A stretch of DNA of 64,000 bases, from assembly GCF_044647545.1 (NCBI RefSeq), contig NZ_CP172818.1; one strand, written 5' to 3'. Shown here one piece after another: positions 326 to 25,423 of the stretch (position 1 is the stretch's first letter; each line of letters opens with the position of its first letter). Origin of the DNA: Escherichia coli (GTDB lineage: Bacteria; Pseudomonadota; Gammaproteobacteria; Enterobacterales; Enterobacteriaceae). A program made the position numbers and the translations under genes. A model generated the notes under the pieces. The model had not been told where the DNA came from. It saw only the letters and a program-made list of their open reading frames with translations, and did not search any database.

Positions 326-351
326 GGTGATGCTGCCAACTTACTGATTTA

Positions 352-1079: not shown

Positions 1080-1094
1080 GTTGGAGTCATTACC

Positions 1095-3297: not shown

Positions 3298-3461
3298 GAT
3301 CGTCTCCTTGCGGTGTGAGGTATAACAAGGGTAGACGTGACTGGCGAAATCTTCGCCAGTCGATAACAGCTTTACGACGGCTATCACGAATTTACGGGCA
3401 AGGGTTACAGAGATAGTTGAAAAAGCGGCTGACAACTCGCCAGCCGTTGCGGGAATGATGA

Positions 3462-4613
3462 TTACATTGCGGCGCGATAAATCGCCACAATTTCTTCGTG
3501 AGTTGCCTGGATCGGGTTAGTAAAGCCACAGGCATCTTTCAGGGCATTAGTCGCCAGTACCGCGAAATCTTCTTCTTTCACGTTCAGGTCACGCAGGCCT
3601 GCCGGGATATCCACTTTCTTCGCCAGTTCACGGATGGCGTTAATGCAGGCTTCAGCACCTTCCGCGTCGTTTTTACCAGTCACGTTCACGCCCATTGCAG
3701 CGGCACAGTCACGCAGACGTGCTGCAGCGACTTTGCTATTGAATACCTGAACGTGTGGCAGCAGAACAGCATTACATACACCGTGTGGCAGGTTGTAGAA
3801 ACCGCCCAGCTGGTGCGCCATCGCATGAACATAACCCAGAGAAGCATTATTGAACGCCATACCGGCGAGGAACTGGGCATAAGCCATTGCTTCACGCGCT
3901 TTAGCATTGCTGCCATCTTCAACGGCTAACGGCAGATTTTCGGCAATCATGGTCACCGCTTTCAGTGCGCAAGCGTCAGTGATCGGCGTGGCGGCAATAG
4001 AAACATACGCTTCGATAGCGTGCGTTAAGGCATCCATACCCGTTGCGGCGGTCAGTGACTTCGGCATACCGATCATCAGAGAGGAGTCATTGACAGAAAG
4101 CAACGGAGTTACATGTTTATCAACAATCGCCATTTTGATATGACGCGCTTCGTCAGTGATGATGCAGAAACGGGTCATTTCAGAGGCCGTACCCGCCGTG
4201 GTATTGATGGCGATCATCGGCAGCTGCGGTTTTGCAGAGCGGTCAACGCCTTCGTAATCGCGAATATCGCCGCCATTGGCTGCCACCAGCGCAATACCTT
4301 TTGCGCAGTCGTGCGGAGAACCACCGCCTAAGGAGATCACGCTATCGCAATTATTTTCTTTAAGTAATTTCAAACCTGCGGCGACGTTTTCCGTGGTGGG
4401 GTTAGGTTGGGTGCCATCATAAATAACGCTAAAAATATTGCGTTCTTCCAGTGCTTTTTGCACATCACCCGCCATACCCAATTTCGTTAACATATTGTCG
4501 GTGACAATTAAGGTACGGGTAAATCCATAATCTGCCATCATATTCATTGCATCATTCAATGAATCAGCACCAATAACATTCACGGAAGGAATAAAAAAGG
4601 TTGAAGCTGCCAT
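3462..4613 (-). CDS. yiaY: Iron-containing (group III) alcohol dehydrogenase
   Basis: 383-aa ORF ([19 protein letters not shown]...) with the GGGSPHD NAD-binding motif typical of Fe-ADH; position next to aldB as in K-12. Confidence 0.9.
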
Positions 4614-4803
4614 AACACACTCCTGAAAGTGTAAAAAAGGGCGGGCAGCTTACTGAGGATTTTCATTTGAAAATATGATCAACATTACCGTTTATTAAAA
4701 TATTTTTAATAAAAAGCACGTTACATTCATCAAATAACGTGCCTTCTTAACATTAATAAGAAATTTTGTATTAATTCATATTTATTATGAATTAATCATT
4801 TCC

Positions 4804-6648
4804 TTATTTTTCCGGAAATAATAATGCGTCGCGCAATAAATGATCATTTCCACGACGACGCGTAAAGCCAATGCGGTCAAAATATTCCAGAATCTGAATT
4901 GCCAGCTTTCGGCCTACGCCTAAGCGATCGCGGAAATCCGCCGCGCAGGTTGAACCACACTCCTGATCGAGATCGCGGATCATATTGGCAAACTCGACAA
5001 TCCGATCGTTACGGTAATAACGATCTTTGACGATCGCGGTAATTATTCCTTGCTGCGCCGCCTGACGTAGCGTCAGACGCATTGCCTGCTCGTCGGTTCC
5101 CGTCTCTTTTGCCAGGTCTCGCACCCACCACGGTTCGTCACCAAACAGTGGCTCTGCTTTTTGCCAGATGGCCTGCTGCTCTTCGCTGAAGCCCGCTTTG
5201 TGATCCGGCAGATGCAGCCAGCCGTGATGACTGAGGATGTCACCGCTTTCACGCATCTTTTCAATCAGCAACAGTACCAGCGCTTCATCTTCCATTGGCA
5301 ACGCCATACGTCGCAGACGTTCGCGCCCAGGACCAGGTTCATCGCGATGTTTCTCATGATAAGTCGCTAATGTGTCGAGAATTTTCCGCTGCCAGCGGGC
5401 GGCAACTGGCGCATTCAACAAGCTGTAACCAGCCTGAATATAGCCAGGCTGTTGCAGCAGTTCGCGCATCCCTTCGCCGTTGAGCTGCCGTGCCCAGGCG
5501 AAATCCGCAAGGTTAACCGCGCCGCGTTCCAGATGAACAGATAACGCATCGGCATCGCTCTGCGCCCGTGCAAGAGACGCCAGCCATTGCAGATATTCCG
5601 GCTTACGCTTACCGCGACGCGGCGGGTTAAGCATCACCACACGCGCCCCCGCCAGCGTGTTGCGGGCCGAGATATCGCGCAGCACTATGCGATCGTTATC
5701 CGCCAGCCACAGCGGCGTGTCGAACACCAGCTCGGCAAGGTTATCTTCCAGCAGCGAAACGCGTCCCGTAACGTGGCTGGCGGCGTGGTGAATATGCAGT
5801 GGCTGCCACTGGGTCAGCGGTGTATGGGTTTGAAGCTCGACTATCACCCGCGTAAACGGCTCCGGCGGCACATCGGCAAGCAGCCAGTCGCCACGGTTAA
5901 TCTGCTCTTTTTCCGCATCACCCGCGATGTTAAGCGCGATACGCTGCCCGGCATGGGCAGTTTCTGTTGGCTGATTTTGCGCATGTAGCGCACGCACGCG
6001 CATCGGTTTATTTACACCAGTCAGCCAGATTGAATCGCCTACCTTCACTTCCCCGCTTAACGCCGTACCGGTGACGACCAGCCCGGCACCTTTTACGGTA
6101 AATGCGCGGTCGATCGCGAGGCGGAAACTATGTTGGCTGGCGTGTTCACGTTCTGGTAACTGAAGCAAATGCTCGCGCAGGGCATCAATTCCCCGACCTT
6201 CGGTTGCTGCGGTGATAAACAGTTTTGCCTCAGCAAAACCGTATTCCCGCAGCACCTCCTTTACCTGGCGTTCAACCTCATCAACACGCGCTTCGTCCAC
6301 GCGATCGGCTTTGGTCAGCGCCACTGTCAGCATCGGGTTACCGGTCAGCTGCAAAATCGCCAGATGCTCACGGGTCTGTGCCATCACGCCGTCATCGCAC
6401 GCCACCACCAACAGCGCGTGATCGATACCACCAACGCCCGCCAGCATGTTGGAAAGAAACTTTTCATGACCGGGAACGTCGATAAAACCCGGAACACGAC
6501 CATCCGGCTGCGGCCAGTAGGCATAGCCGAGATCGATGGTCATGCCGCGCTTTTTTTCTTCCGGCAGACGGTCGGCATTTACGCCAGTAATCGCCTGCAA
6601 TAAGGTTGTTTTGCCGTGGTCAACGTGTCCGGCAGTCGCAATAATCAT
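4804..6648 (-). CDS. selB: Selenocysteine-specific translation elongation factor SelB
   Basis: 614-aa ORF with N-terminal GTPase motifs ([28 protein letters not shown]); overlaps selA by 4 bp. Confidence 0.95.
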
Positions 6649-8036
6649 TTCAACAACATCTCCAAAAACCGTTGCTCATCTTCAAGGCAGCGTAAATCCA
6701 GCCACAATCGTCCGTCATAAATACGACCAATCACCGGCACTGGCAATTCACGCCAGCGGGCGGCTAATGACTCAAGGTGGCTACCGCGTCCATCATGGGG
6801 TGTAAACGTTAATGCCGCGCTCGGCAGGCGATCAACCGGCAGCGAACCACTGCCAATCTGCGAAAGACATGGCATAACCTGTACCGCAAACTCCGCGCCG
6901 TAATGTGCGGCAAGGGGAGCCTGTAAACGTTGTGCCTGGATTTGAATGACCTCTGCGCTGCGGGTAAGCAGGCGCAGGGTCGGTAATTTTTTACTCAGAG
7001 CTTCAGGGTGTAAATAAAGACGCAACGTGGCTTCCAGCGCCGCAAGGGTCATTTTATCCGCGCGTAATGCACGCTTCAGCGGGTGGCTTTGCAGTCGGGC
7101 GATCATCTCTTTTTTACCAACAATAATTCCTGCCTGCGGCCCGCCTAACAACTTGTCGCCGGAGAAGCTCACCAGACTGACGCCCGCCGCAATCAACTCC
7201 TGCGGCATTGGCTCTTTCGGCAAACCGTACTGGCTAAGATCGACCAGCGAGCCACTGCCTAAATCAGTCACTACGGGGACATCCAGCTCTTTGCCGAGCG
7301 CCACCAGTTCCGCTTCATCTATCGCTTTGGTGAATCCCTGAATGCTGTAGTTACTGGTATGTACTTTCATCAACAGCGCGGTATTTTCATTCACCGCCTG
7401 GCGATAATCATTAGCGTGCGTGCGGTTGGTGGTCCCCACTTCGTGTAGGGTGCAGCCTGCCTGACGCATAACATCGGGAATACGAAACGCGCCGCCAATC
7501 TCCACCAGTTCGCCGCGAGAAACCACCACCTCTTTCCCGCTGGCAGTGGCCGCCAACATCAATAACACCGCCGCCGCATTGTTATTAACGATACAGGCAT
7601 CTTCCGCCCCCGTAATACGGCACAGCAGCTGCGCCAGCGCCCGATCGCGATGTCCGCGTCCGGCGTCGTCCAGATCGTACTCGAGGGTCACTGGCGAACG
7701 CATAGCCTTCGTAACGGCTTCCACCGCGGCTTCCGCCTGTAAAGCTCGCCCAAGGTTGGTATGCAGCACGGTTCCCGTCAGGTTGATTACCGGACGCAGC
7801 GCGCTTTGCGCCTCTTTCGTCAACCGGGCATCGACTTCTTGCGCCCAGTTTTCACACCACGCGGGAAGCGTCTGGCTGTCTCGAATCACTTCTCGCGCTT
7901 CGTCAAGCATCTGACGCAGCAATTCCACCACGCGGGTGTGACCATAAGTATCACGCAAAGAAAGGAAGGAGCTATCGCGCAATAAGCGATCAATAGCCGG
8001 AAGTTGACTATAGAGGGAACGCGTTTCGGTTGTCAT
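6645..8036 (-). CDS. selA: L-seryl-tRNA(Sec) selenium transferase
   Basis: 463-aa ORF ([19 protein letters not shown]...), PLP-dependent fold; selAB operon arrangement. Confidence 0.95.
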
Positions 8037-8133
8037 AGGAAACCTGGCTGATCAAGGCCCTCTCACACGGAGAAGGGCGTTTAACATAACCACGGATTGT
8101 AACGTGAGATGGGTCAGGAGGACATATCGCGCA

Positions 8134-8742
8134 TCAAGCCTTTGGCGGTTCGGTGCGAGCAAAACTTTCGCGGCTAAACAGGTTTTCGACCAGTTTGACT
8201 AAGTGTGGGCGGTCGACACACCAGCCTGGCGCAACGCGGCGGAAATTGAGATATCCGACGGCACAGGCAATGGCGATAGTCGCCAGATTGACCGTATCGG
8301 TTTTGAGCGTGCCATCGACCAGATATCCTTCCAGCACATCCAGACTGCGGTTGATTTTCTCCCGCTGGCGTAACAATTCATCTTCAGACTGCTGCGCCGC
8401 CGGACGCGCCTGTTCACGCACCGATACCAGCCCGGCATCCATAATGCCATCCGCCAGTGCCTCAATTTTGCGCACTCGCAACGACTCCAGCGGATCGCGC
8501 GGCAACATCGCCGGAGCGACATTCATTAATTCAATATATTCAGCGATGATCGCCGAATCAAACCAACATTCACCCTCTTCGGTCACCAGCACCGGCACTT
8601 TCCCTAACGGGTTAAATTGCGCCACGCCGTTGTCCGCGTTATAGGGCAGTTCATTAATAAATTCGAAAGTTATGCCCTTTTCTAACAACAGAATAGAAAG
8701 TTTGCGTACAAACGGGCTGGTGTAGCTACCGACGAGTTTCAT
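8134..8742 (-). CDS. yibF: Glutathione S-transferase-like protein
   Basis: 202-aa ORF ([24 protein letters not shown]...) with GST N-terminal thioredoxin-like fold signature; K-12 gene order. Confidence 0.85.
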
Positions 8743-8970
8743 GCCGAGTCCTTTGTGCGAGGAAAAATATCAGTATGGCCTGGTGATGGGAAAAAGGGCA
8801 GAAAATGTTGATGGTTTGTTACTTCCCAATAAATCACATATTTATCATGGTGATATAAATATTTTCCTAATTGTTCTTATCTGACAGATATCTCACTTAA
8901 GGCTTTCTTATAAATCTGTAGGGTTTCGCCTGTCAGCAGACAAATAACCCGATAAAACAAGGATGAGCAG

Positions 8971-11900
8971 ATGAGCGGAAAACCGGCGGCGCGTCAGGGC
9001 GACATGACGCAGTATGGCGGTAGCATTGTCCAGGGTTCAGCCGGGGTACGTATTGGTGCCCCCACCGGCGTGGCCTGTTCGGTGTGCCCCGGCGGAGTAA
9101 CGTCCGGCCATCCGGTCAATCCGCTGCTCGGTGCAAAGGTCCTTCCCGGCGAGACAGACATCGCCCTGCCCGGCCCGCTGCCGTTCATTCTCTCCCGCAC
9201 CTACAGCAGTTACCGGACAAAAACGCCCGCGCCGGTGGGGAGCCTCGGCCCCGGCTGGAAAATGCCTGCGGATATCCGCTTACAGCTGCGCGATAACACA
9301 CTGATACTCAGTGATAACGGCGGCAGAAGCCTGTATTTTGAGCACCTGTTTCCCGGTGAGGACGGTTACAGCCGCAGCGAGTCACTCTGGCTGGTGCGCG
9401 GCGGCGTGGCGAAACTGGATGAAGGTCACCGGCTGGCCGCACTCTGGCAGGCGCTGCCGGAAGAGCTTCGCCTGAGTCCGCATCGTTATCTGGCGACGAA
9501 CAGTCCACAGGGGCCGTGGTGGGTACTCGGCTGGTGTGAGCGGGTGCCGGAGGCGGATGAGGTGCTGCCTGCGCCGCTGCCGCCGTACCGGGTACTGACC
9601 GGGCTGGTGGACCGCTTCGGGCGCACACAGACGTTCCACCGTGAGGCTGGCGGCGAATTCAGCGGCGAAATCACCGGCGTGACGGATGGCGCAGGCCGTC
9701 ACTTCCGGCTGGTACTGACCACGCAGGCGCTGCGGGCAGAAGAGGCCCGGCAGAAGGCCATTTCCGGCGGGACGGAACCGTCCGCTTTTCCTGATACCCT
9801 GCCGGACTACACGGAATATGGCCGGGACAACGGTATCCGTCTGTCTGCCGTGTGGCTGACACACGACCCTGAATACCCGGAGAATTTACCTGCCGCGCCG
9901 CTGGTGCGCTATGGCTGGACGCCACGCGGCGAACTGGCGGTGGTGTATGACCGCAGCAATACACAGGTGCGCAGCTTTACTTACGATGATAAATACCGGG
10001 GCCGGATGGTGGCGCACCGTCACACGGGCCGGCCGGAAATCCGTTACCGTTACGACAGTGACGGGCGGGTGACAGAACAGCTAAACCCGGCAGGCTTAAG
10101 CTACACGTATCAGTATGAGAAAGACCGCATCACCATCACCGACAGCCTGGACCGCCGTGAAGTCCTGCATACCGCAGGCGAAGGCGGCCTGAAGCGGGTG
10201 GTGAAAAAGGAACACGCGGACGGCAGCGTCACGCAGAGTCAGTTTGACGCGGTGGGCAGGCTTAAGACACAGACGGATGCCGCAGGCCGGACAACAGAAT
10301 ACAGCCCGGATGTGGTGACGGGCCTCATCACGCGCATCACCACGCCGGATGGCAGGGCATCGGCGTTTTACTATAACCACCACAGCCAGTTAACGTCAGC
10401 CACCGGGCCTGACGGGCTGGAAATACGCCGGGAATATGATGAATCCGGCCGTCTGATTCAGGAAACCGCCCCTGACGGCGATATCACCCGCTACCGTTAT
10501 GATAATCCACACAGTGACTTCCCCTGCGCAACGGAAGATGCCACCGGCAGCCGGAAAACCATGACGTGGAGCCGTTACGGTCAGTTGCTGAGCTTCACCG
10601 ACTGTTCCGGCTACCAGACCCGTTATGACCATGACCGCTTCGGGCAGATGACGGCGGTGCACCGCGAGGAAGGCCTGAGCCAGTGCCGCGCATACGACAG
10701 CCGTGGACAGTTAATTGCCGTGAAAGACACGCAGGGCCATGAAACGCGGTATGAATACAACATCGCCGGTGACCTGACCGCCGTCATTGCCCCGGACGGC
10801 AGCAGAAACGGGACACAGTACGATGCGTGGGGAAAGGCCATCCGTACCACGCAGGGCGGGCTGACCCGCAGTATGGAATACGATGCTGCAGGACGGGTCA
10901 TCCGCCTGACAAACGAAAACGGCAGCCACACCACCTTCCGTTACGATGTACTCGACCGGCTGATACAGGAAACCGGCTTTGACGGCCGCACACAGCGTTA
11001 CCACCACGACCTGACCGGCAAACTTATCCGCAGCGAGGATGAGGGGCTGGTCACCCACTGGCACTATGACGAAGCAGACCGCATCACGCAGCGAACGGTG
11101 AATGGTGAAACCGCAGAACAGTGGCGGTACGACGAACGCGGCTGGCTGACACAAATCAGCCATCTCAGCGAAGGGCACCGGGTGACGGTGCATTACGGGT
11201 ATGATGAGAAAGGCCGCCTGACCGGTGAGCGCCAGACGGTGCATCATCCGCAGACGGAAGCACTGCTCTGGCAGCATGAGACCAGACATGCGTACAACGC
11301 GCAGGGGCTGGCGAACCGCTGTATACCGGACAACCTGCCCGCCGTGGAATGGCTGACTTATGGCAGTGGTTACCTGGCAGGGATGAAACTCGGCGACACA
11401 CCGCTGGTGGAGTACACCCGCGACCGCCTGCACCGGGAAACGCTGCGCAGCTTCGGCCGTTATGAACTCACCACCGCTTATACCCCTGCCGGGCAGTTAC
11501 AGAGCCAGCACCTGAACAGCCTGCAGTATGACCGCGATTACACCTGGAACGACAACGGCGAACTCATTCGCATCAGCAGCCCGCGCCAGACCCGGAGTTA
11601 CAGCTACAGCGACTCCGGCAGGCTGACCGGCGTTCACACCACCGCAGCGAACCTGGATATCCGCATCCCGTATGCCACGGACCCGGCAGGTAACCGCCTG
11701 CCCGACCCGGAGCTGCACCCGGACAGCACCCTCAGCATGTGGCCGGATAACCGTATCGCCCGTGACGCGCACTATCTTTACCGGTATGACCGTCACGGCA
11801 GGCTGACGGAGAAAACCGACCTCATCCCGGAAGGGGTTATCCGCACGGATGATGAGCGGACTCACCGGTACCATTACGACAGCCGGCACCGGCTGGTGCA

Positions 11901-12750
11901 CTACACGCGGACACAATATGCAGAGCCGCTGGTCGAAAGTCGCTATCTTTACGACCCGCTGGGCCGCAGGGTGGCAAAACGGGTGTGGCGGCGTGAACGG
12001 GACCTGACGGGCTGGATGTCGCTGTCACGGAAACCGGAAGTGACCTGGTACGGCTGGGACGGCGACCGCCTGACCACGATACAGAACGACAGAACCCGCA
12101 TCCAGACGGTTTATCAGCCGGGGAGCTTCACACCACTCATCAGGGTCGAAACCGCCACCGGTGAGCAGGCGAAAACGCAGCGCCGCAGCCTGGCGGATGC
12201 GCTTCAGCAGTCCGGCGGCGAAGACGGTGGCAGTGTGGTGTTCCCGCCGGTGCTGGTGCAGATGCTCGACCGGCTGGAAAGTGAAATCCTTACTGACCGG
12301 GTGAGTGAGGAAAGCCGCCGCTGGCTGGCATCGTGCGGCCTGACGGTGGCGCAGATGCAAAACCAGATGGACCCGGTGTACACGCCGGCGCGAAAAATCC
12401 ACCTGTACCACTGCGACCATCGCGGCCTGCCGCTGGCGCTTGTCAGCACGGAAGGGGCAACAGAATGGTGCGCAGAATACGATGAGTGGGGCAACCTGCT
12501 GAATGAAGAGAACCCGCACCAGCTGCAACAGCTTATCCGCCTGCCGGGTCAGCAGTATGATGAGGAGTCCGGCCTGTATTACAACCGCCACCGCTATTAT
12601 GACCCGCTGCAGGGGCGGTATATCACTCAGGATCCGATTGGGCTGAAGGGGGGATGGAATTTTTATCAGTATCCGTTGAATCCGATATCAGACATCGAGC
12701 CCCCTGGGTTTATCTATGTGGGAGGATGCAAAATCGGGGGCATGTACTAA
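8971..12750 (+). CDS. rhsA: Rhs-family core protein (RhsA-type) with N-terminal PAAR-like region and YD repeats; very short atypical C-terminal tip
   Basis: 1259-aa ORF starting [26 protein letters not shown]; many YD/RHS repeats (RYRYDxxGR); conserved core end ...[29 protein letters not shown], followed by only [21 protein letters not shown] before the stop. GC-rich, unlike the AT-rich DNA downstream. Confidence 0.9.
12241..12686 (+). repeat. 3' end of rhs core; copy A of a dispersed direct repeat (copies at 14626-15069 and 17213-17298)
   Basis: About 450 bp nearly identical to 14626-15069; the last 80 bp or so also recur at 17213-17298. Boundaries are approximate. Confidence 0.8.
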
Positions 12751-13754
12751 TGGTCTTTGCGGCATATCAGCTGTGATGAGAGGTGCATAAGTTTTTCATA
12801 GACCGCATATGACGCCTTAATAACAATAAAATTAAAATATATTTTCAATAAAATCAATAGCCAAATAAAATAAATAAATAAATTTTCCCTGCACCTAGAA
12901 CGTGGAGAAAGTTAGTACATACTATGGATGCAATAGCATTGACATAATGGTGGGACGAATATTTTCACTTCGACTAATGTGGTAGATATCAGATTTGGAC
13001 GAAATATTTTAAGCAAAGATGAAAATAATTAAAATAAACAACGAATAAATACCACCCCATTAATAAACAATAGATAACCACGGGAAGGAAATAACAAACG
13101 GAAAAGGATCCGATGCCAGAGTTATCGGTAATATTAAAAAAAAAAATATAAATAAAATAAATAAATTTTATTTAGCACTCCCATTTTTTTTACACAACAT
13201 GGCCATAATAATAATTTTAAAATAATAATGACGGGAAAGAGAGAAAGAAGGTAAACTGTAAAAGGATTACAAAAATTTGGTCTACAAATACAGGTTATAG
13301 TAAAAAAATATTTTTTAGAATTTATTGTATCTTTTTTTTTTTACAACAACACAGGTCGCAGTGTAATTACAGAGATATTAAAATAATGCTCAAATTTATG
13401 AAGCAGTGAGGCAGAAGAATATACATATAAACGCTTCATTAAAACAAGTGGGTAATTTGGTTAAAAATAAACTAACATTGAATTACAATATATGTTAAAA
13501 TCAGGCAACCAAAAAGAAAAAATATAAAATATGATTAACAACAAGTCTTGTTGAAGGCACCATTCACTCAGACCAAATTGCTGGTGGGGTTTTTATTAGA
13601 AAATAGGCAAAAATGATGGGGTAATTCTGAATTTTGGCCACGGAAAATAAGTATGTAAGGATAATCAAACATCGTGTGCGCTGATGGCAGAGTAGGTGGA
13701 GGACTCCAGACAGTCAAACGATAAAAAAAGATAGCCTTTATGGAGGCTCCTGCA

Positions 13755-14597
13755 ATGTCAAATACATACCAGAAAAGAAAGGCAAGTAAAGAGTATGGTT
13801 TATATAATCAATGTAAGAAACTAAATGATGATGAATTATTTCGCTTACTTGATGATCACAATTCCTTGAAAAGGATTTCATCTGCCAGAGTATTACAGTT
13901 AAGAGGTGGGCAAGACGCTGTTAGATTGGTAATTGAGTTCTGCTCTGATAAAAATTATATCCGTAGAGATATCGGAGCATTTATACTCGGGCAAATAAAA
14001 ATTTGCAAAAAATGCGAAGATAATGTGTTTAATATTTTGAACAATATGGCATTGAATGATAAGAGCGCTTGCGTTCGAGCTACGGCAATCGAGTCAACGG
14101 CTCAGCGATGCAAGAAAAACCCAATTTATTCACCTAAAATAGTAGAACAATCTCAAATTACTGCTTTTGATAAATCGACTAATGTCAGACGTGCTACAGC
14201 ATTTGCTATTTCTGTTATCAATGATAAAGCAACAATTCCACTATTGATTAATCTGTTAAAAGATCCAAATGGAGATGTCAGAAACTGGGCCGCATTTGCA
14301 ATAAATATCAATAAATATGATAATAGTGATATTAGGGATTGTTTTGTGGAGATGCTTCAGGATAAAAATGAGGAAGTCCGTATTGAAGCAATAATCGGAC
14401 TTTCCTACAGAAAAGATAAAAGGGTTTTATCTGTTTTATGCGATGAGTTAAAAAAAAATACTGTTTATGATGATATCATTGAAGCTGCGGGTGAATTAGG
14501 TGATAAAACGCTACTTCCTGTTTTAGATACTATGTTGTACAAGTTTGATGACAATGAAATTATAACTTCCGCTATTGATAAGCTGAAGCGTTCATAG
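13755..14597 (+). CDS. yibA: HEAT/armadillo-repeat protein YibA
   Basis: 280-aa product from the ATG at 13755 (MSNTYQKRKASKEYGLYNQ...); repeated helical DxxVRxxAxxAL-like units; sits inside the Rhs accessory region as in K-12. Confidence 0.85.
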   Translation: MSNTYQKRKASKEYGLYNQCKKLNDDELFRLLDDHNSLKRISSARVLQLRGGQDAVRLVIEFCSDKNYIRRDIGAFILGQIKICKKCEDNVFNILNNMALNDKSACVRATAIESTAQRCKKNPIYSPKIVEQSQITAFDKSTNVRRATAFAISVINDKATIPLLINLLKDPNGDVRNWAAFAININKYDNSDIRDCFVEMLQDKNEEVRIEAIIGLSYRKDKRVLSVLCDELKKNTVYDDIIEAAGELGDKTLLPVLDTMLYKFDDNEIITSAIDKLKRS

Positions 14598-14638
14598 CGT
14601 GAGTTGCCTATGCACAGTGGGGTATTCCCGCCGGCACG

Positions 14639-15148
14639 GTGCAGATGCTCGATCGGCTGGAAAGTGAAATCCTGGCTGACCGGGTGAGTGAGGAAAGCCG
14701 CCGCTGGCTGGCATCGTGCGGCCTGACGGTGGAGCAGATGCAAAACCAGATGGACCCGGTGTTCACGCCGGCGCGAAAAATCCACCTGTACCACTGCGAC
14801 CATCGCGGCCTGCCGCTGGCCCTTATCAGCAAGGAAGGGACAACAGAATGGTACGCAGAATATGATGAATGGGGCAACCTGCTGAATGAAGAGAACCCGC
14901 ACCAGCTGCAACAGCTCATCCGCCTGCCGGGTCAGCAGTATGATGAGGAGTCCGGCCTGTATTACAACCGCCACCGCTATTATGACCCGCTGCAGGGGCG
15001 GTATATCACTCAGGATCCGATTGGGCTGAAGGGGGGATGGAATTTTTATCAGTATCCGTTGAATCCGATGACAACGGTTGATCCTCTTGGATTAAAATTT
15101 AAGGTAGAAGGTGACGGTCAGCTTTTGATTCTGCAATTGAATATTTGA
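14639..15148 (+). pseudogene. yibJ: Orphan Rhs core-end fragment (yibJ/rhsJ-like) with a truncated C-terminal tip
   Basis: GTG-initiated 169-aa ORF duplicating the last 150 residues or so of the rhsA core ([12 protein letters not shown]...[27 protein letters not shown]), then only 17 residues before the stop; no upstream core. Confidence 0.65.
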
Positions 15149-15209
15149 AACAAGATGATGAGATGAAAAAAAATAATTACGGCCCTTGAAAAGGATAAAC
15201 ACACTATAG

Positions 15210-15536
15210 TGGTTAGTTGTAATAATAATTATGATACACTCATTTAATCGATGGACAATGAGAATACACTGGGATCCTAAAGCTGCTCTATTGTGTACGG
15301 GTGTACAGAAAGATGGTAATTTTGATTTTAAAAATGACAATCTTGAGCCTGTAGTAGCATTAGGTCATGAAATAGCCCATGCAGAGGCTTATTAAATGAA
15401 GAATTCAGTGTTTATATGAAGCGAGTAAATACACCTGATCCTATATATGATAACGCAGAGGAAAGAAGAGTAATAACAGGTATTGAGAAACATGTTGCAC
15501 AAACATTAAAACAATGTGTTAGAAAAAACCACGGGG
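15210..15536 (+). pseudogene. Decayed remnant of a putative HExxH-motif toxin domain (two short frames separated by a frameshift)
   Basis: Frame 1 (about 15210-15396) translates ...WDPKAALLCTGVQKDGNFDFKNDNLEPVVALGHEIAHAEAY*; a second frame (about 15411-15536) gives MKRVNTPDPIYDNAEERRVITGIEKHVAQTLKQCVRKNHGE*. Read by eye; no ORF of 60 aa or more. Confidence 0.3.
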
Positions 15537-17284
15537 AATAATTTACCATGTACCTTAACAATATACGGTTGTAGTTGCTATATTTGTAAAGAGATTACCC
15601 CATCGAACCGGAATAAATGAAAATGACTATATTTTATGAGTTACTATCATCATTGAACAATCAGCATATAAGATAACCTCACCAAAAGCAGTTTAAACCA
15701 TGGTAAGTTGTAGAAGTGGGACATCTCGGCACCCCATTTTTTGTATGAAAAGTTACGAGAAATATATATTTTAATTTTTTTTTATATTATATATTAACCA
15801 AAATTAAAAAAACAACAATTTAAATAAAAAATTATTTATTACTTATATATTAACAATATCATAATAAATTCATTAAAACCGCTAGTTATAAATAATTATA
15901 AAAAAATCACAAATTGTTAAAATTTAATATTAATTATTTTAAAACAACCTAATGATATAAGATGGGGATTTATAGATCTAAGTGAAAGAGCTTGTTACTA
16001 TATTTTTATTTTTCTTTTGTTCCGGTGATTTGAATGGTATTAGTATGTTGAAAAAAATAGAAAAAAAGTGGAGGGGTCTAAGCCATAATATATCATTAGT
16101 GAAGAAAAGATGATGCATAAACTGAAATATAATATGGCAAAAAAGAATTCAAAGGCATCATTCTACTCCTGACTATTTTTCACATTTCCTCGAAGTTAAA
16201 TTGAAAATACGAGACGCAATATTAAAATTATACAAATGAATTCCAGAAAATCACGTAACGCTGCTTTTTTTACTAAACAATTCCATTTTATGTTTAAAAA
16301 TTAGATATCTATTAGAAGCTGTTTTTTATTGTTATAGATCATCAAAAATACTCCTTATAATAAAAGAACAAAATTGATTAAAAAATTGAAAATATTTATT
16401 ATCCATTACAACAATAAAAAATAAATTATATATTCTATTTGACTATTGGTTATTTCGTAGATGGTTGGGAAATATAACGATTATTGGAAAGATCAGCATC
16501 TCGGGATTTTTACAAGCAATATTGATTTTGAAAAGGGTATTCCTTTTCACGATACCATTCCAGATTTACCTGTATCAGATCTTGCATAATTTCACGAGAG
16601 CTTTATTAATTGGATGTGACATTCTCAGATGAAATAAAGCGTCATATTGTATGGAAACGATTTATACAAATCCCCAAATATTATTATGTAAAAATTTATC
16701 AAATAGAAATCAGACAGATGCGAAATCCAATGAGATCAAACAGCTACAAATTTAAAAATATTAAAAAAAATCATCACAAACGTATTAAAAATAAAAAATA
16801 CAAAAACATATTATTTATCTTAAAAGAAATCACCTAAATAAACCTAGAAAAATCATAAAATTAAATAACAAAATACATACCAATTATGAAAAATCACCAA
16901 AAAAATCTCTCACATTCATTCTATGAATTATTATTTCACTAATAAATCTAAAATCATTGCATCTCTCTCAATAATACAAACAAAAAAAAAAAAACGTCAA
17001 TATAATCATTCTTATTTAACCAAAGCTTCCACACAATCGAAACAGCACGGAAATAAGCCGCACTGGCGTCGACGCGGTAATGAATGAAGACGACTGCAAA
17101 ATAAGAAGAATCCGTAAACAGCAGAATTAGTTCTCAGGATACCGCACACGCTAGTAATATACGAATGATAAGTATTCAAGGCAGTGCTAAGACGTAATAT
17201 CGGTAACTTTTCCCGCCGCAGGGGCGGTATATCACTCAGGATCCGATTGGGCTGAAGGGGGGATGGAATTTTTATCAGTATCCG

Positions 17285-17758
17285 TTGAATCCGATAACTG
17301 ATATTGACCCGTTGGGATTAGCGACCTGTTTATACAGCATAACTTTAGGTATGCTTTCATGCGTTTCAGATACGTCAAGTGATGATAATTCTTATGGTGT
17401 GCTTACTATTTCAGTCGCCTCTGGTAATAATGGTAATAATATGCAATGTAAAAATAATCCTGGTTGTACACACTTACAAAATAGAGGCCCAATACCTCAA
17501 GGGGTATGGAGCTGGAATGTTAATGGTCCTGGAGCAACTAATAGAAAACCTAATGGTATACGTTTAGTACCGTCAGCAAATACAGAAACGTATAATCGTG
17601 ATGGATTTTTAACACATAGTTGTTTAAACGCTTTTGGTCCATCTTTAGGACCTCGATTCTGTTCCGAGGGGTGTATAACTGGTTCATCTAATGACATGCA
17701 AAAATTAAATGAGCTAATATTTTCAGAGCCAGATAGCACATTAACAGTGACGGACTAG
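17285..17758 (+). CDS. Orphan Rhs C-terminal toxin module; putative L,D-transpeptidase-like (YkuD/Tlde1-like) toxin domain
   Basis: Rhs core-end homology resumes at about 17213 ([36 protein letters not shown]); in-frame stop at 17204-17206 and no ATG before the TTG at 17285. The tip contains RGPIPQGVW and H-x15-SEGCI ([24 protein letters not shown]), resembling the LD-transpeptidase catalytic His/Cys signature. Confidence 0.6.
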
Positions 17759-17762
17759 AAAT

Positions 17763-18284
17763 ATGGCAAGGTTATTAACAATTGTGCTTTTTTTCTCTAT
17801 TTCTGCGAATGCAGTTACTGTAAACCAATTTCAGAGAGAGTTGGATTTGGCAGACAAGGCAATATTATGGGCACTAATATCAGCCAGTACCCAAGAGGGA
17901 CGAAAAGCGTGTTCACTTAGCTATTTTTCATGTAAAGCCGCAGAGGCTGAACTCGGACTGGCATATATGGCTGCTAATGATAACAAGGCATTTCTCACAT
18001 CCTTATCTAGAATAATGATGTACAAAATAGATGCTGGACTTTCCGAATCCTATACATGCTATTTATTAAGCAAGGGAAAGATCATAAGACCATATCTGAA
18101 GAATCTAAATCCACACCAACTTGTCGCTGATTGCATTGAAACTGTAAATAAAATAAAAGATAAAAATAAAAAAATCATTGATATAGATTCAGTTAATATT
18201 TGCAATGATAATAAAAATATAAATTGGAGAGTTAATAGTACTATTGTAGCCATTGATGATTCTATAAAATGCATCGATGAATAA
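17763..18284 (+). CDS. Putative secreted (periplasmic) immunity protein paired with the upstream orphan Rhs toxin
   Basis: 173-aa ORF starting 5 bp after the toxin stop; N-terminal signal-peptide-like segment MARLLTIVLFFSISANA followed by a Cys-containing soluble domain; AT-rich like the toxin tip. Confidence 0.5.
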   Translation: MARLLTIVLFFSISANAVTVNQFQRELDLADKAILWALISASTQEGRKACSLSYFSCKAAEAELGLAYMAANDNKAFLTSLSRIMMYKIDAGLSESYTCYLLSKGKIIRPYLKNLNPHQLVADCIETVNKIKDKNKKIIDIDSVNICNDNKNINWRVNSTIVAIDDSIKCIDE

Positions 18285-18741
18285 TAACTTAATTATATTT
18301 AAAAATATATTAATAACTCACTCTCCAGGAGTTTTTTTAACTTAGTGTTATAATGAATACGATAATTAAAAGTGAAGAGAAAAATAGTTGTATACATATA
18401 TTCCATGAACCTACATTGTGATCTATAAATTAAATATTTTTAAATGTGACTATCATCCTTCAGATAATAAAGCCATCATCGCAATAGATGGAAAAGCACT
18501 CCTGCTCTTTTTTGATTAGAGCCGTGGCAGAGGAACAACTCATATCATCATTGCGATCTCGACAATGTATAGTCTGATCCTTCGGCAGATCAAGACGGAT
18601 AAAAAATCCAATGAGTTCACACTCATCCCGAACTTCTTAACATAATGGATATTAACGAAAAATCATCACAGCCGATGAAATAATATGCAAAAATAATTAG
18701 TCCTTGCAGGGAGCAAAGTTCCATAATCTCCCCCGCCCCCC

Positions 18742-19878
18742 TCAATGATCCAAATAAAGATAATGCATCCAACTGGTCATTCTTAGCAGCACCTTCCGCA
18801 TCACCGAAACATGGCTGAAATGGTCGGAGTAAACTGCTACCTGGGCGTAAATGCCGTCGGGTAAGGCATCGATATCATCGTTAGGGTCCAGTTCAATGGT
18901 TCCCAGCACACCGTCCGTGCCGGGTACGACGGTTAATGATTGCAGTACCCCTTGCGCCTGATACGAACCGCCTGGCACGACAGGTAAAATACTAGTCAGT
19001 TTGCCGTGGAACACCTGCCCAGGTAGCGCGTTAAACACCACTTCCGCATCATCGCCGGGTTTCAGACGTAACAGCGAGTTCTGCCGAAATTGGGCGACAA
19101 TTTGCCGTTTTTGCTCGGGGATGAAAACCATCACCGGACGCAACGGCAAGGCAGCTGCGTATGTACCTGGGCGGATCAGTACCTGAGTAACGTAGCCATT
19201 GCTTGGTGCGCGAATGACAGTCTGCTCAAGGTTATATTTTGCTTCAGTAAGTTGCGCTCTTAAGCTCACAATCTGCGACTGCTCGCCGTTAACCATACTG
19301 TCGAGCTGGCTCTGGATCTGCGCCTGCTCCGCCACCGAGCCTTTCACCAGCGCGTCCTGCGCGAGGAAGTTTTGCCGCGCATCGTCGATGTCACGTTCCG
19401 AGAACGGATTCACTGCCGCCTGGCTGCCTTTCAGGTAACGTTGATAATTTTTAAACAGGCGGTCGCGCTCCGCTGAAACCTGGGTGGTGTTGGCCTGCGC
19501 TTCAGTGAGCTGCGCGCGCAGCGTCTTTATATTATGCGTCGCCGTCATCAGGTCAGCCTGAAGTCTGTCAACTCGCGCCTGGTAACGAACCGGGTCGAGC
19601 TTAAAAAGCACCTCGCCCTTCTGAATAAGCTGATTATTTTTGTCGGTGACTTCAGTAACAATTCCCGTCACCTGTGGCGTGATGGGGATCGCTATCACTG
19701 CCTTTTGCGCGGTAAAAGTGTAAGGGTGGTTGTAGTTCATCAACAAAATCAAACCACTCACCAGAAACACGCCTCCCAGCGCCGCCGTCGCCAGCGTCCA
19801 CTGATTTACCGGAATGCGGAAGATTTTAAAGACCGCCCACGCCAGCGCCACGTAAGTTAAAACAATCAATAGATCCAT
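18742..19878 (-). CDS. yibH: HlyD-family membrane fusion protein
   Basis: 378-aa ORF with N-terminal TM helix, long coiled-coil (RLQADL...LRAQLTEAQ) and C-terminal beta-barrel typical of HlyD/EmrA periplasmic adaptors. Confidence 0.85.
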
Positions 19879-19880
19879 AT

Positions 19881-20243
19881 TTAGATCTCCGGGAACGTGG
19901 AATAGTCAGTCTTTTTCTCGGCGGCGAGTTGATGCTCCAGCCGGGAAATTCGGTCAGAAAGTGCGGCGATTTCCGGGTCAGTCGCTTTCTCCTGCGACGC
20001 AACATGTGACTGCATACCCCAGCCACGCTCCGGTTGATAGAGCGTCGCCCAGATCCACAGGAACGGCCAGATAACATGCAGAGTAAACAGGCTCACCCAG
20101 CCCGCTGTATGAATAGCGTCGGCATGGGGGTGATTACGCTTTTTGGCAATCAGATAAGGGATGTCATGTATCGCGATGATTCCATAAAAAATCACCAGAA
20201 AGACGAAGATCAGCACTCCCAACGCGAAGTAGTTTAGAAACAT
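19881..20243 (-). CDS. yibI: DUF3302 inner-membrane protein
   Basis: 120-aa product from the ATG at 20243 ([45 protein letters not shown]...); the track ORF extends upstream to 20345. Confidence 0.85.
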
Positions 20244-20458
20244 ATCTGCCTCGGATTCACGTTTATCAGTGTTGTTTTTGGCTGGCAGCCAGATGGGAGT
20301 CGGGCTGATATTTTGACAATAATCCGGGTTGGCGATTCTCGCCATAACACCGAAGAATAATTTTTAGAGGTGATGAGTTGCTTAGTTACATAACGATTTT
20401 ATGACGAAGGCATAACATGCTGCAGATCACATCAGGTGAACGCCGTAAGAAAATATCT

Positions 20459-20474
20459 TGTGATTCAGATCACA
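20459..20474. promoter_or_regulatory. CRP binding site (TGTGA-N6-TCACA) in the mtlA promoter
   Basis: tgtgattcagatcaca, a perfect match to the CRP half-site consensus. Confidence 0.7.
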
Positions 20475-20502
20475 AAGATTCAACAAACTAACAAAACAAA
20501 AA

Positions 20503-20518
20503 TGTGACATTACTCACA
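20503..20518. promoter_or_regulatory. CRP binding site in the mtlA promoter
   Basis: tgtgacattactcaca, perfect TGTGA-N6-TCACA. Confidence 0.7.
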
Positions 20519-20575
20519 TTTAAATGCCATTTTTAGCGAAAATCGCCGCCTTGTTGCTTTTTTACACAAGAGTTT

Positions 20576-20591
20576 TGTGATGCACATCACG
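20576..20591. promoter_or_regulatory. CRP-like site in the mtlA promoter
   Basis: tgtgatgcacatcacg, one mismatch in the right half-site. Confidence 0.6.
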
Positions 20592-20629
20592 TCAATTACC
20601 TCTCTACCCCCTATATTTATGTGATTCAT

Positions 20630-20645
20630 ATCACACAAAAAGCCG
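20630..20645. promoter_or_regulatory. CRP binding site in the mtlA promoter
   Basis: tgtgattcatatcaca, perfect TGTGA-N6-TCACA about 135 bp upstream of the mtlA ATG. Confidence 0.7.
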
Positions 20646-20778
20646 TCGACTGGACAGTTAACCGATTCAGTGCCAGATTTCGCAGTATCTACAAGGTCCG
20701 GCTACCTCTGCCGCCACATTAACAAAAAACCTCGGGCTTCCAGCCTGCGCGACAGCAAACATAAGAAGGGGTGTTTTT

Positions 20779-22692
20779 ATGTCATCCGATATTAAGATCA
20801 AAGTGCAAAGCTTTGGTCGTTTCCTCAGCAACATGGTGATGCCAAATATCGGCGCGTTTATCGCGTGGGGTATCATCACCGCGTTATTTATTCCAACAGG
20901 GTGGTTACCGAACGAAACGCTGGCGAAGCTGGTCGGGCCGATGATCACTTATCTCCTGCCACTGCTGATCGGTTATACCGGTGGTAAGCTGGTAGGCGGC
21001 GAACGTGGCGGCGTAGTCGGTGCCATTACCACCATGGGCGTTATCGTCGGCGCAGACATGCCGATGTTCCTCGGTTCTATGATTGCAGGTCCGCTGGGCG
21101 GCTGGTGCATTAAGCACTTCGACCGCTGGGTAGACGGTAAGATCAAATCCGGTTTTGAAATGCTGGTGAATAACTTCTCCGCAGGCATCATCGGGATGAT
21201 CCTCGCTATTCTGGCATTTCTCGGCATTGGCCCGGTTGTTGAAGCCCTGTCTAAAATGCTGGCGGCGGGCGTTAACTTCATGGTTGTCCATGACATGCTG
21301 CCGCTGGCGTCTATCTTTGTTGAACCGGCGAAAATCCTGTTCCTCAACAACGCCATTAACCACGGTATCTTCTCGCCGCTGGGTATTCAGCAGTCCCATG
21401 AACTGGGTAAATCCATCTTCTTCCTGATTGAAGCTAACCCAGGTCCAGGTATGGGCGTGCTGCTGGCGTACATGTTCTTTGGTCGTGGTAGCGCTAAACA
21501 GTCTGCGGGCGGTGCGGCAATCATCCACTTCCTGGGGGGTATCCACGAAATCTACTTCCCGTATGTGCTGATGAATCCGCGTCTGATTCTGGCCGTTATC
21601 CTCGGCGGTATGACTGGCGTATTCACGCTGACTATCCTGGGCGGTGGGCTGGTTTCTCCGGCATCTCCGGGTTCTATCCTTGCTGTACTGGCGATGACGC
21701 CAAAAGGTGCTTACTTCGCTAACATCGCGGGTGTGTGTGCGGCGATGGCAGTCTCCTTCGTTGTCTCTGCTATTTTGCTGAAAACCAGCAAAGTGAAAGA
21801 AGAAGATGATATTGAAGCTGCTGCGCGTCGCGTTCAGGAAATGAAAGCTGAGTCTAAAGGTGCATCTCCGCTGTCTGCGGGCGATGTGACTAACGACCTG
21901 AGCCACGTACGTAAAATCATCGTTGCCTGTGACGCCGGTATGGGTTCCAGTGCGATGGGCGCAGGTGTGCTGCGTAAGAAAATTCAGGATGCAGGTCTGT
22001 CGCAGATTTCTGTTACTAACAGCGCGATCAACAACCTGCCGCCAGATGTGGACCTGGTCATCACTCACCGTGACCTGACCGAACGCGCTATGCGCCAGGT
22101 TCCGCAGGCACAGCATATTTCGCTGACCAACTTCCTCGACAGCGGCCTGTACACCAGCCTGACCGAACGTCTGGTTGCTGCCCAGCGCCATACTGAAAAC
22201 GAAGTAAAAGTGAAAGACAGTCTGAAAGACAGCTTTGACGATTCCAGTGCTAACCTGTTCAAGCTAGGCGCGGAGAACATCTTCCTCGGTCGCAAAGCGG
22301 CCACCAAAGAAGAAGCGATTCGTTTTGCTGGCGAGCAGCTGGTGAAAGGCGGTTACGTTGAGCCGGAATACGTTCAGGCGATGCTGGATCGTGAAAAACT
22401 GACCCCGACTTATCTGGGTGAGTCTATCGCGGTGCCACACGGTACGGTTGAAGCAAAAGATCGCGTACTGAAAACGGGCGTGGTGTTCTGCCAGTACCCG
22501 GAAGGCGTGCGCTTCGGTGAAGAAGAAGATGACATTGCCCGTCTGGTGATTGGTATTGCTGCCCGTAACAACGAGCACATTCAGGTTATCACCAGCCTGA
22601 CCAATGCACTGGATGATGAGACTGTCATCGAGCGTCTGGCACACACCACCAGCGTGGATGAAGTGCTGGAATTGCTGGCAGGTCGTAAGTAA
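20779..22692 (+). CDS. mtlA: PTS mannitol-specific EIICBA component
   Basis: 637-aa ORF ([31 protein letters not shown]...) with membrane EIIC, EIIB Cys region and C-terminal EIIA domain. Confidence 0.95.
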
Positions 22693-22786
22693 TCCAATCC
22701 TCCCCTCTCCTCACGGAGAGGGTTTGGGTGAGGGAAAAGCCTCACCCCAGCCCTCTCGGGTAAAAACATTGATGAAGGTTAATACT
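22693..22786. repeat. GC-rich intergenic palindromic element (two stem-loops) between mtlA and mtlD
   Basis: cctctcctcacggagagg and ggtgagggaaaagcctcacc inverted repeats; possible attenuator or REP-like element. Confidence 0.5.
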
Positions 22787-24522: not shown

Positions 24523-24532
24523 GTACTTTCGC

Positions 24533-25387: not shown

Positions 25388-25423
25388 GAACACAGTATCT
25401 ACAGGGTGATTCTGCACATTCCT

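What the first reader, a model, noticed from the sequence alone, without database searches (positions are those of the whole stretch)
12751..13754. About 1 kb of extremely AT-rich, ORF-free DNA between rhsA and yibA
No ORF of 60 aa or more on either strand, stop codons in all frames, and A11/T11 homopolymer runs (about 13136-13146 and 13332-13342). As I recall, yibA follows rhsA within a few tens of bp in K-12, so this spacer occupies the position where a toxin tip and immunity gene would be expected. It may be a decayed toxin/immunity module, an H-NS-bound silencing region, or a source of antisense or small transcripts. GC content is visibly far below the flanking rhs core.
Basis: seen in the sequence. 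Interest (0 to 1): 0.45.

Follow-up and report, generated by a model that had tools for sequence, protein, structure and literature searches.

The report
Garbled Rhs toxin tip and immunity gene
The AT-rich, gene-free kilobase between rhs and yibA is a badly scrambled copy of a well-known Rhs toxin tip and its immunity gene yhhH, and the scrambling looks like a sequence-quality artefact, not evolution or a new element.

Summary

The window is almost clonal with ST648-type E. coli genomes (FUJ80154, ampC_0069, AP024694), with 0-2 differences per 8-9 kb. In those genomes the same interval holds the RhsB-type toxin tip (Pfam DUF4329, also called Tox-JAB-2), the immunity gene yhhH (Imm-NTF2-2) and a 104-bp spacer before yibA.

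The window is colinear with that module, but 12765-13600 has only about 51% column identity, with 282 substitutions and 19 indel events. The flanks are 100% identical. A second scrambled block lies at 15700-17210, over an ISAs1 transposase.

33 natural loci carry the module at 98.3-100% identity. None of 5,426 complete E. coli genomes has the scrambled form.

About 165 bp of the reference appears twice, with independent errors and opposite quality gradients, like two noisy sequence ends joined without merging. Both blocks abut repeats.

In-situ decay is excluded. An artefact in the source assembly is the most likely cause (about 0.6). Real degenerate DNA remains possible (about 0.2). Nothing supports an sRNA or regulatory role. 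Interest is low.

The parts
8971..12750 (+). Main rhs gene at the yibF-rhs-yibA (rhsA) locus. As given it is a 1259-aa ORF with the complete core but no toxin tip.
   Evidence: ORF list and translation. Identical to the FUJ80154/ampC_0069 rhs core up to about 12570. The intact homologues are 1408-1411 aa. This exact protein is on record from a single NCBI contig of 4,499,902 bp.
12570..12675 (+). End of the main core. It carries the alleles of the two downstream orphan core fragments (NFYQYP instead of NLYGYQ).
   Evidence: Four-way alignment. The 31-mer at 12655-12685 is identical to 15038 and 17264 in the window and to the orphan fragments in all related loci.
12679..12711 (+). Sequence coding the PxxxxDPxGL core/tip boundary motif, with one extra G at 12699 that shifts the frame and leads to the stop at 12748-12750.
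   Evidence: Pairwise comparison with AP024694 and ampC_0069. The 28-mer containing the insertion occurs in none of the 41 fetched loci; the version without it occurs in 22.
12701..13137 (+). Remnant of the DUF4329 (Tox-JAB-2) toxin domain. It is intact to 12764 and scrambled after that.
   Evidence: tblastn with the intact Rhs tip matches 12701-13108 in frame 2 at 37% identity with many stops, E=6.5e-14. DNA alignments.
12765..13600 (+). Scrambled block 1: 836 bp standing for 748 bp of the intact tip plus yhhH.
   Evidence: 51% column identity, 282 substitutions, 19 indel events, GC 28.0% against 35.0%, and a longest exact run of 51 bp. Profiles. The best match to any of 33 natural loci is 71% over 433 bp.
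13058..13372 (+). Two noisy copies (13058-13214 and 13205-13372) of the same ~165 bp of the reference, covering the end of the toxin gene and the start of yhhH.
   Evidence: Overlapping BLAST alignments, repeat families D4 and D5, and a three-way alignment with counts: 4 shared derived bases among 72 variable sites, with opposite quality gradients in the two copies.
13277..13650 (+). Remnant of yhhH (Imm-NTF2-2 immunity gene). The last 50 bp and the stop codon at 13648-13650 are intact.
   Evidence: tblastn pieces at 13302-13397, 13499-13597 and 13591-13647, in three frames with stops. 100% identity resumes after 13600.
13651..13754 (+). Native 104-bp yhhH-yibA spacer, unaltered.
   Evidence: 100% identical to L004 and L017. 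The same spacer is annotated in FDAARGOS_497, YZ_2_1 and ampC_0069.
13740..14597 (+). yibA (HEAT-repeat protein, immunity to K-12 RhsA-CT), intact.
   Evidence: ORF. The exact protein occurs on 429 contigs. 858/858 identical to the ampC_0069 locus (L017).
15700..17210 (+). Scrambled block 2: 1511 bp standing for 1962 bp of intergenic DNA, a transposase fragment and a complete ISAs1 transposase gene. It ends at the next rhs core fragment.
   Evidence: 54% column identity, 442 substitutions, 59 indel events, GC 25.9% against 36.6%. Profile, annotation of the intact counterpart, and natural copies at 98.7-100% identity in the loci that span the block.

Best explanation
The interval is a corrupted rendering of an ordinary, well-known Rhs accessory module. 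That module is the C-terminal toxin tip of the main Rhs protein (Pfam DUF4329, also called Tox-JAB-2, joined to the core at the PxxxxDPxGL motif), followed by its cognate immunity gene yhhH (Imm-NTF2-2) and the native 104-bp spacer before yibA.

Shown: the ancestry and colinearity; the perfect flanks; the abrupt, patchy, indel-rich and A-biased damage; a second block of the same kind 2 kb downstream; and the absence of this form from every other genome examined.

Inferred: the damage was not made by evolution in the cell. It arose when the sequence record was produced. Most likely a low-quality, unpolished stretch next to repeats (the rhs core end, ISAs1, an rhs fragment) was left in the assembly, with two noisy sequence ends concatenated instead of merged. 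The core end may also have been mis-corrected to the allele of its paralogous orphan copies.

On this reading the real chromosome carries the intact, or at most frameshifted, toxin/immunity module. It would work as in its relatives: the Rhs shell encloses the tip, the tip is released at DPxGL and delivered to neighbouring cells, and YhhH protects the producer.
For: (1) The window is near-clonal with FUJ80154. It shows no differences across 3410-12300 or across 52242-61271, and 2 SNPs in 17538-25388. About 250 differences are packed into 12660-13600.

(2) Identity falls from 100/100 to 30-50/100 within about 100 bp and returns just as sharply. yibA and the first orphan fragment between the two blocks are 100% identical.

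(3) The natural alleles ST648, K-12 rhsB-yhhH and YZ_2_1 differ at no more than 18 of 1040 positions. In 33 independent loci the 749-bp module is 98.3-100% identical, and 24 loci are exactly identical. The window's version reaches at most 71% over 433 bp.

(4) None of 5,426 complete E. coli genomes covers 80% or more of the interval. A 22-mer from the block is absent from 100,044 species-representative genomes and from the metagenome contigs. The truncated Rhs protein is seen on one contig among about 15 billion proteins.

(5) About 165 bp of the reference is present twice. The errors in the two copies are independent, and their quality runs in opposite directions: copy A matches 42/46 columns then 19/45, while copy B matches 22/48 then 31/42.

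(6) The errors are not uniform. Exact runs of 51 and 34 bp occur at 51-54% identity (P about 0 under a uniform error rate). All substitution types occur, with transitions/transversions of about 0.7-1.0. There are 19 and 59 indel events, strand-asymmetric loss of G and gain of A, and lowered complexity with new A11, T11 and A13 runs.

(7) Both blocks touch repeat boundaries. The main core end carries the allele of the two orphan copies exactly where three copies exist.

(8) Where exact 13-mers survive at allele-specific sites, the window matches the ST648 allele 5 of 5 times. It therefore derives from the same recent allele and not from an old divergent one.
Against: No reads or quality values are available, so the artefact is inferred and not observed.

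The rest of the 64-kb window shows no sign of a noisy assembly. Other AT-rich stretches (yibA, 18100-18440 at 19-25% GC, the waa region) are clean, so no simple coverage or GC explanation fits.

Homopolymer expansion and A-bias do not match the classic error profile of any one platform I know. Block 1 gains 88 bp while block 2 loses about 450 bp.

The unmerged-overlap signature was found only in block 1. A real tandem duplication followed by mutation would also give independent differences in the two copies.
Confidence: 0.6

Rival explanations
1. The scrambled sequence is real chromosomal DNA. On this reading it is a dead toxin/immunity module that reached this state either by replacement with a very degenerate homologue through two short recombination patches, or by an unknown burst of local mutation. 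It would leave an Rhs shell without a toxin, no YhhH, and yibA still preceded by its native upstream region.
For: The frameshifted 1259-aa Rhs is present in a public NCBI assembly. The rest of the window looks like a high-quality sequence. Rhs accessory regions are known hotspots of rearrangement, and disrupted orphan modules are common (PMC3150448). Four further 1-bp indels lie in the orphan module at 15114-15532. AT-biased, low-complexity sequence is what long neutral decay produces.
Against: Flanks with zero divergence exclude in-situ decay. No donor exists among 5,426 complete genomes, 33 fetched loci, the species-representative genomes or the metagenomes. Natural alleles differ by less than 2%. 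Two separate blocks, one covering an ISAs1 copy, would each need the same improbable event. The spectrum has near-random transitions/transversions and one indel event per 7-15 substitutions. The duplicated segment has complementary quality gradients.
Confidence: 0.22
2. The blocks were altered or filled in by software after sequencing, not by the assembler's handling of noisy reads. Candidates are a neural polisher or consensus tool, gap-filling, or some later processing of the record or of this window.
For: The blocks show patchy retention of exact 20-50-mers in the right order, between degenerate AT-rich low-complexity text such as AAATAAAATAAATAAATAAA. They also show stutter-like local duplications and lowered 3-mer entropy, 5.39 against 5.67-5.75. 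This profile fits no single sequencing platform well.
Against: The frameshift and junction variant 65-110 bp upstream of the block are in the public record. That suggests the neighbouring damage is there too. Nothing here can tell this rival from an assembly artefact, and both mean the feature is not biological.
Confidence: 0.1
3. The interval is a functional non-coding element in its own right, such as an H-NS nucleation or silencing region, a promoter region for yibA, or a source of small or antisense RNA.
For: It has very low GC (25-36%). AT-rich DNA is generally bound by H-NS (established knowledge, not tested here).
Against: There is no Rfam match at E<=1 across 12500-17400. Promoter-like sites number 6 against 6.4 +/- 2.9 in shuffles, and the single terminator-like site is within chance. 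The element is not conserved, being a singleton. The part nearest yibA, 13601-13754, is simply the native sequence found in all relatives.
Confidence: 0.03

Closest known systems
RhsB-type toxin tip (Pfam PF14220 DUF4329 / Tox-JAB-2) with YhhH immunity (PF15631 Imm-NTF2-2), as in E. coli K-12 rhsB-yhhH and at the rhsA locus of ST648-type strains
   Same: It occupies the same position directly after the PxxxxDPxGL-coding end of the rhs core. It is colinear with the intact module over its whole length, and remnants of both proteins are detectable. The last 50 bp of yhhH and the 104-bp spacer to yibA are identical. Zhang et al. 2012 pair Tox-JAB-2 with Imm-NTF2-2 on RHS proteins (PMC3482391).
   Different: There is no intact ORF for either protein. 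A +1 frameshift sits in the DPLGL motif, and the interior has about 51% column identity with many indels.
K-12 rhsA-yibA arrangement
   Same: Same chromosomal locus (selA-yibF-rhs-yibA-orphans-yibH) and the same yibA gene. yibA neutralises the RhsA C-terminal region according to work cited in PMC3150448.
   Different: In K-12 the RhsA tip is part of the 1377-aa gene and yibA follows after 20 bp. Here and in ST648 relatives a different tip plus yhhH lies between the core and yibA.
Orphan or disrupted rhs-CT/rhsI cassettes ('silent cassettes')
   Same: It is a non-expressed toxin/immunity remnant within an rhs accessory region. Two real orphan modules follow in the same locus, at 14615-15600 and at 17212-18284 with a Tlde1-domain tip and Imm57.
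   Different: Natural orphans keep readable, often functional coding sequence and are shared between strains (PMC3150448). This interval is a singleton with no readable frame.
Local low-quality patches in genome assemblies (unpolished long-read bridges, unmerged contig ends next to repeats)
   Same: Quality changes abruptly. The patches lie next to repeats, a reference segment is duplicated with independent errors, the sequence is a singleton, and a paralogue-type 'correction' sits at a repeat end.
   Different: No read-level evidence is available, and the error profile (A-bias, homopolymer expansion) is not typical of one known platform.

Membership tests
Rhs C-terminal toxin / immunity module (DUF4329-Tox-JAB-2 + YhhH-Imm-NTF2-2) | Lies directly downstream of the rhs core, starting at the PxxxxDPxGL boundary | tested here: met
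   The boundary-coding sequence is at 12679-12711, and the alignment with intact genes starts there.
Rhs C-terminal toxin / immunity module (DUF4329-Tox-JAB-2 + YhhH-Imm-NTF2-2) | Sequence homology to the DUF4329 tip and to yhhH | tested here: met
   Colinear blastn alignments at E=5e-96 and 8e-134 including flanks, and E=1e-16 for the interior alone. tblastn remnants at E=6.5e-14 and 5e-16.
Rhs C-terminal toxin / immunity module (DUF4329-Tox-JAB-2 + YhhH-Imm-NTF2-2) | Toxin domain in frame with the core as one ORF | tested here: not met
   An extra G at 12699 shifts the frame to a stop at 12748-12750, and the downstream frames are full of stops.
Rhs C-terminal toxin / immunity module (DUF4329-Tox-JAB-2 + YhhH-Imm-NTF2-2) | Intact immunity ORF of about 127 aa immediately downstream | tested here: not met
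   The largest ORF in the interval is 49 aa. YhhH pieces lie in three frames with stops.
Pseudogene formed by in-situ neutral decay | Divergence of the dead gene is commensurate with divergence of its flanks and of silent sites nearby | tested here: not met
   The flanks differ at 0-2 sites per 8-9 kb, while the block has about 49% non-identical columns.
Pseudogene formed by in-situ neutral decay | Shared by related genomes, or intermediate stages exist | tested here: not met
   No match among 5,426 complete genomes, and 33 loci carry the module at 98.3-100% identity.
Pseudogene formed by in-situ neutral decay | Mutation spectrum typical of E. coli: transitions dominate, few indels, deletion bias | tested here: not met
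   Transitions/transversions are about 0.7 and 1.0. There are 19 and 59 indel events, and block 1 has a net gain of 88 bp. The alignment inside the blocks is uncertain, which weakens this test.
Assembly / consensus artefact | Abrupt switch between perfect and very poor identity, with patchy exact stretches | tested here: met
   Profiles. Exact runs of 51 and 34 bp at 51-54% identity.
Assembly / consensus artefact | Located at repeat boundaries | tested here: met
   Block 1 starts at the end of the multi-copy rhs core. Block 2 covers ISAs1 and ends at an rhs core fragment.
Assembly / consensus artefact | Unmerged overlap: the same template represented twice with independent errors | tested here: met
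   Found in block 1 only.
Assembly / consensus artefact | Low depth or low base quality, or reads that disagree with the consensus | not testable with these tools
   The source contig (4,499,902 bp, NCBI) could not be retrieved, and no reads are available.
Known structured or small RNA | Match to a curated RNA family | tested here: not met
   No Rfam match at E<=1 across 12500-17400 on either strand.

The most novel reading that the evidence does not exclude
The scrambling is real and recent. Some localised, extremely mutagenic process, such as error-prone resynthesis with slippage, would have rewritten a toxin/immunity module and a neighbouring IS copy in an otherwise clonal E. coli chromosome while leaving the genes between them untouched.
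Probability: 0.05. Interest if true: 0.8.

Novelty: not a real feature. Interest (0 to 1): 0.12.

Why it matters
As biology it matters little. The underlying element is the familiar Rhs tip plus yhhH immunity pair found unchanged in thousands of E. coli genomes.

It matters as a caution. An 'AT-rich ORF-free spacer' that looks like an ancient decayed module or a silencing region can be produced by a bad patch in an otherwise excellent assembly. Gene callers then report a tip-less Rhs protein and a missing immunity gene that probably do not exist in the cell.

If the sequence were shown to be real, it would be evidence for a kind of local hypermutation not known in E. coli. That would be important, but the present evidence gives it only a small chance.

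Tried and rejected
Recoded or synthetic genome. The first large search gave only 97% identity, which suggested this. It was rejected: codon usage is normal, the selA differences are mainly synonymous third-position changes, and the window is 99.9-100% identical to FUJ80154 once the right relative is used.

Generally noisy long-read assembly. Rejected: there are no homopolymer errors in about 45 kb outside the rhs locus.

Low-GC coverage dropout as the sole cause. Not supported: yibA and 18100-18440 (19-25% GC) are perfect.

Second genomic copy of the tip/yhhH causing repeat collapse. Not supported: close relatives have one copy.

Deaminase-type hypermutation. Rejected: all twelve substitution types occur, together with many indels.

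Ancient divergent allele. Rejected: alleles from distant lineages differ by 1.8% or less, and the surviving allele-specific 13-mers are of ST648 type.

Retrieving the source contig. Five routes were tried: the truncated Rhs protein, the frameshifted orphan ORF with two alternative starts, a hypothetical stand-alone DUF4329 ORF, the Kbl F5C variant, and Imm57. All failed. These look-ups only added more loci with the intact module.

Not done.

Full report
**Observation**

The rhs ORF runs from 8971 to 12750 and encodes 1259 aa. yibA begins at 13740, or at 13755 for the 280-aa RefSeq start. Between them no ORF exceeds 49 aa on either strand.

GC is 25-36% in 300-bp windows, against 56-69% in the rhs core. 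A11 lies at 13136-13146 and T11 at 13332-13342.

The lack of ORFs is what random sequence of this composition gives: the longest stop-free stretch is 68 codons, against 72 +/- 17 in shuffles. The long homopolymers are mildly unusual, with a run of 11 or more in 4.4% of shuffles.

**What the interval descends from**

Megablast against 5,426 complete E. coli genomes found no record covering 80% or more of the interval. The best hits covered 67-70% at 83-85% identity, over features annotated rhsB, yhhH and yibA.

In those genomes the order is:
- an rhs gene of 1408-1411 aa whose tip carries Pfam PF14220 (DUF4329);
- yhhH, 127 aa, PF15631 (Imm-NTF2-2);
- a 104-bp spacer;
- yibA.

Zhang et al. 2012 call DUF4329 'Tox-JAB-2'. 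They list it on RHS proteins with Imm-NTF2-2 as its immunity partner (PMC3482391). Poole et al. 2011 describe the PxxxxDPxGL boundary, orphan cassettes, and yibA as neutralising the K-12 RhsA C-terminal region (PMC3150448).

The window is colinear with this module. tblastn finds pieces of the toxin domain at 12701-13108. It finds pieces of YhhH at 13302-13397, 13499-13597 and 13591-13647. These pieces lie in different frames and are broken by stops.

An extra G at 12699, inside the DPLGL-coding sequence, shifts the rhs frame to the stop at 12748-12750.

**Why this is not ordinary decay**

The window proved to be almost clonal with ST648-type strains. Against FUJ80154:

| Window region | Differences |
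|---|---|
| 3410-12300 | 0 |
| 17538-25388 | 2 SNPs |
| 52242-61271 | 0 |

Against ampC_0069, whose rhs locus has the same gene order, identity is 100 of 100 in every 100-bp bin from 12000 to 12499. It is 97-100 of 100 in every bin from about 13572 to 15667, and 100 of 100 again from 17309 onward.

Two blocks break this pattern:

| | Block 1 | Block 2 |
|---|---|---|
| Window coordinates | 12765-13600 | 15700-17210 |
| Length in window / reference | 836 / 748 bp | 1511 / 1962 bp |
| Column identity | 51% | 54% |
| Substitutions | 282 | 442 |
| Indel events | 19 | 59 |
| Reference content | toxin tip and yhhH | intergenic DNA, a transposase fragment, a whole ISAs1 transposase gene |

Natural diversity of the module is tiny. 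The ST648 allele, the K-12 rhsB-yhhH allele (at a different locus and in a different phylogroup) and YZ_2_1 differ at no more than 18 of 1040 positions. Among 33 loci fetched from independent assemblies and metagenomes, the 749-bp counterpart of block 1 is 98.3-100% identical, and 24 are exactly identical. The window's version reaches at most 71% over 433 bp.

Where allele-specific 13-mers survive, the window matches the ST648 allele 5 of 5 times. The scrambled sequence therefore comes from the same recent allele, yet differs from it far more than E. coli alleles differ across the species. In-situ decay is excluded.

Import from a donor would need two separate patches from a source that none of the searches detects. 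Those searches were megablast and blastn of the interior and a 22-mer scan of species-representative genomes and metagenome contigs.

**Character of the damage**

- All twelve substitution types occur, and transitions/transversions are about 0.7 and 1.0.
- In both blocks G is lost and A gained on the + strand: G falls from 0.21 to 0.15 and 0.12, and A rises from 0.34-0.37 to 0.42-0.44. C and T change little.
- 3-mer entropy drops from 5.67-5.75 to 5.39, and new A11, T11 and A13 runs appear.
- The errors are patchy. Exact runs of 51 and 34 bp occur at an overall identity where uniform error would never give them.

About 165 bp of the reference, spanning the end of the toxin gene and the start of yhhH, is represented twice, at 13058-13214 and 13205-13372. 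The two copies share only 4 derived bases among 72 variable sites. The first copy is good on its left (42/46) and poor on its right (19/45). The second is poor on its left (22/48) and better on its right (31/42). This is what two noisy sequence ends look like when they overlap on the same template but are joined end to end.

Block 1 begins at the end of the multi-copy rhs core. Block 2 covers the multi-copy ISAs1 and ends at an rhs core fragment.

At 12570 and 12660-12675 the main core carries the alleles of the two orphan fragments at 15038 and 17264. This is the result expected if multi-mapped reads 'corrected' one repeat copy to the majority allele. A short natural gene conversion would look the same.

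**What argues the other way**

I have no reads. The remainder of the window is clean, including other very AT-rich stretches, so no simple depth or GC argument explains the location. The error profile fits no platform I can name. Block 1 gains length while block 2 loses it.

The truncated Rhs protein exists in a public NCBI assembly on a 4,499,902-bp contig, so at least the frameshift and junction variant are in the deposited record. Attempts to fetch that contig failed.

**Other readings**

There is no Rfam match at E<=1 over 12500-17400. Promoter-like sites are at the chance level, 6 against 6.4 +/- 2.9, and there is a single terminator-like site. The 154 bp next to yibA are simply the native sequence of all relatives. 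Nothing points to an independent non-coding function.

**Verdict**

The 'decay' is not evolutionary. I put about 0.6 on an artefact of the source assembly, about 0.1 on some other software-made corruption, about 0.2 on real but unexplained degenerate DNA, and a few percent on anything functional.

Either way the underlying element is a known Rhs module. I rate it 'not a real feature' with low interest. The small residual chance of real local hypermutation is the only reading that would be remarkable.

Noticed in passing
window 15700-17210: A second scrambled block. It is 1511 bp standing for 1962 bp of intergenic DNA, a transposase fragment and a whole ISAs1 transposase gene. It has 54% column identity, GC of 25.9% against 36.6%, and an A13 run. 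It ends exactly where the next rhs core fragment starts.
   Followed up: partly
window 15114, 15237, 15391, 15532 (also SNPs at 15069 and 15596): Four single-base indels lie in the first orphan module and its small downstream ORF (WP_022646262.1 in relatives). The stretch is otherwise 100% identical to ST648 relatives. Three of the four shorten short runs of C, T or G.
   Followed up: partly
window 12570 and 12660-12675: The end of the main rhs core carries the alleles of the two orphan core fragments (NFYQYP in place of NLYGYQ). This is either a short gene conversion or a repeat mis-correction.
   Followed up: yes
window 323-1094: An IS1 copy is inserted in yiaW. The same 9 bp of the tcmA_3 reference (L003 18315-18323) flank it on both sides, as expected for a target-site duplication.
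   Followed up: no
window 25388-25484: About 6.5 kb present in FUJ80154 between yibL and lldP is absent here, replaced by about 95 bp. The missing stretch holds a DUF3251 protein gene and the YadA-like/EhaG adhesin gene.
   Followed up: no
window 43880-52242: The LPS core (waa) region does not match FUJ80154. Up to 49537 it matches a different lineage (Logan DRR472196 contig, L019) at 99.3%, so the core type was probably exchanged by recombination. All ORFs there are intact.
   Followed up: partly
window 40860 and 40917: A 5-bp deletion and a 1-bp insertion relative to FUJ80154 lie just beyond the kbl start codon (40762), upstream of kbl. Three other lineages also break alignment at 40861-40924.
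   Followed up: no
loci L022, L028 (GCA_030995285.1, GCA_949813155.1): Some public assemblies of the same locus show rhs, yhhH and yibA chopped into many short ORFs while the DNA stays 99.7-99.9% identical. These are ordinary frameshift-type assembly noise and look quite different from the window's scrambling.
   Followed up: partly
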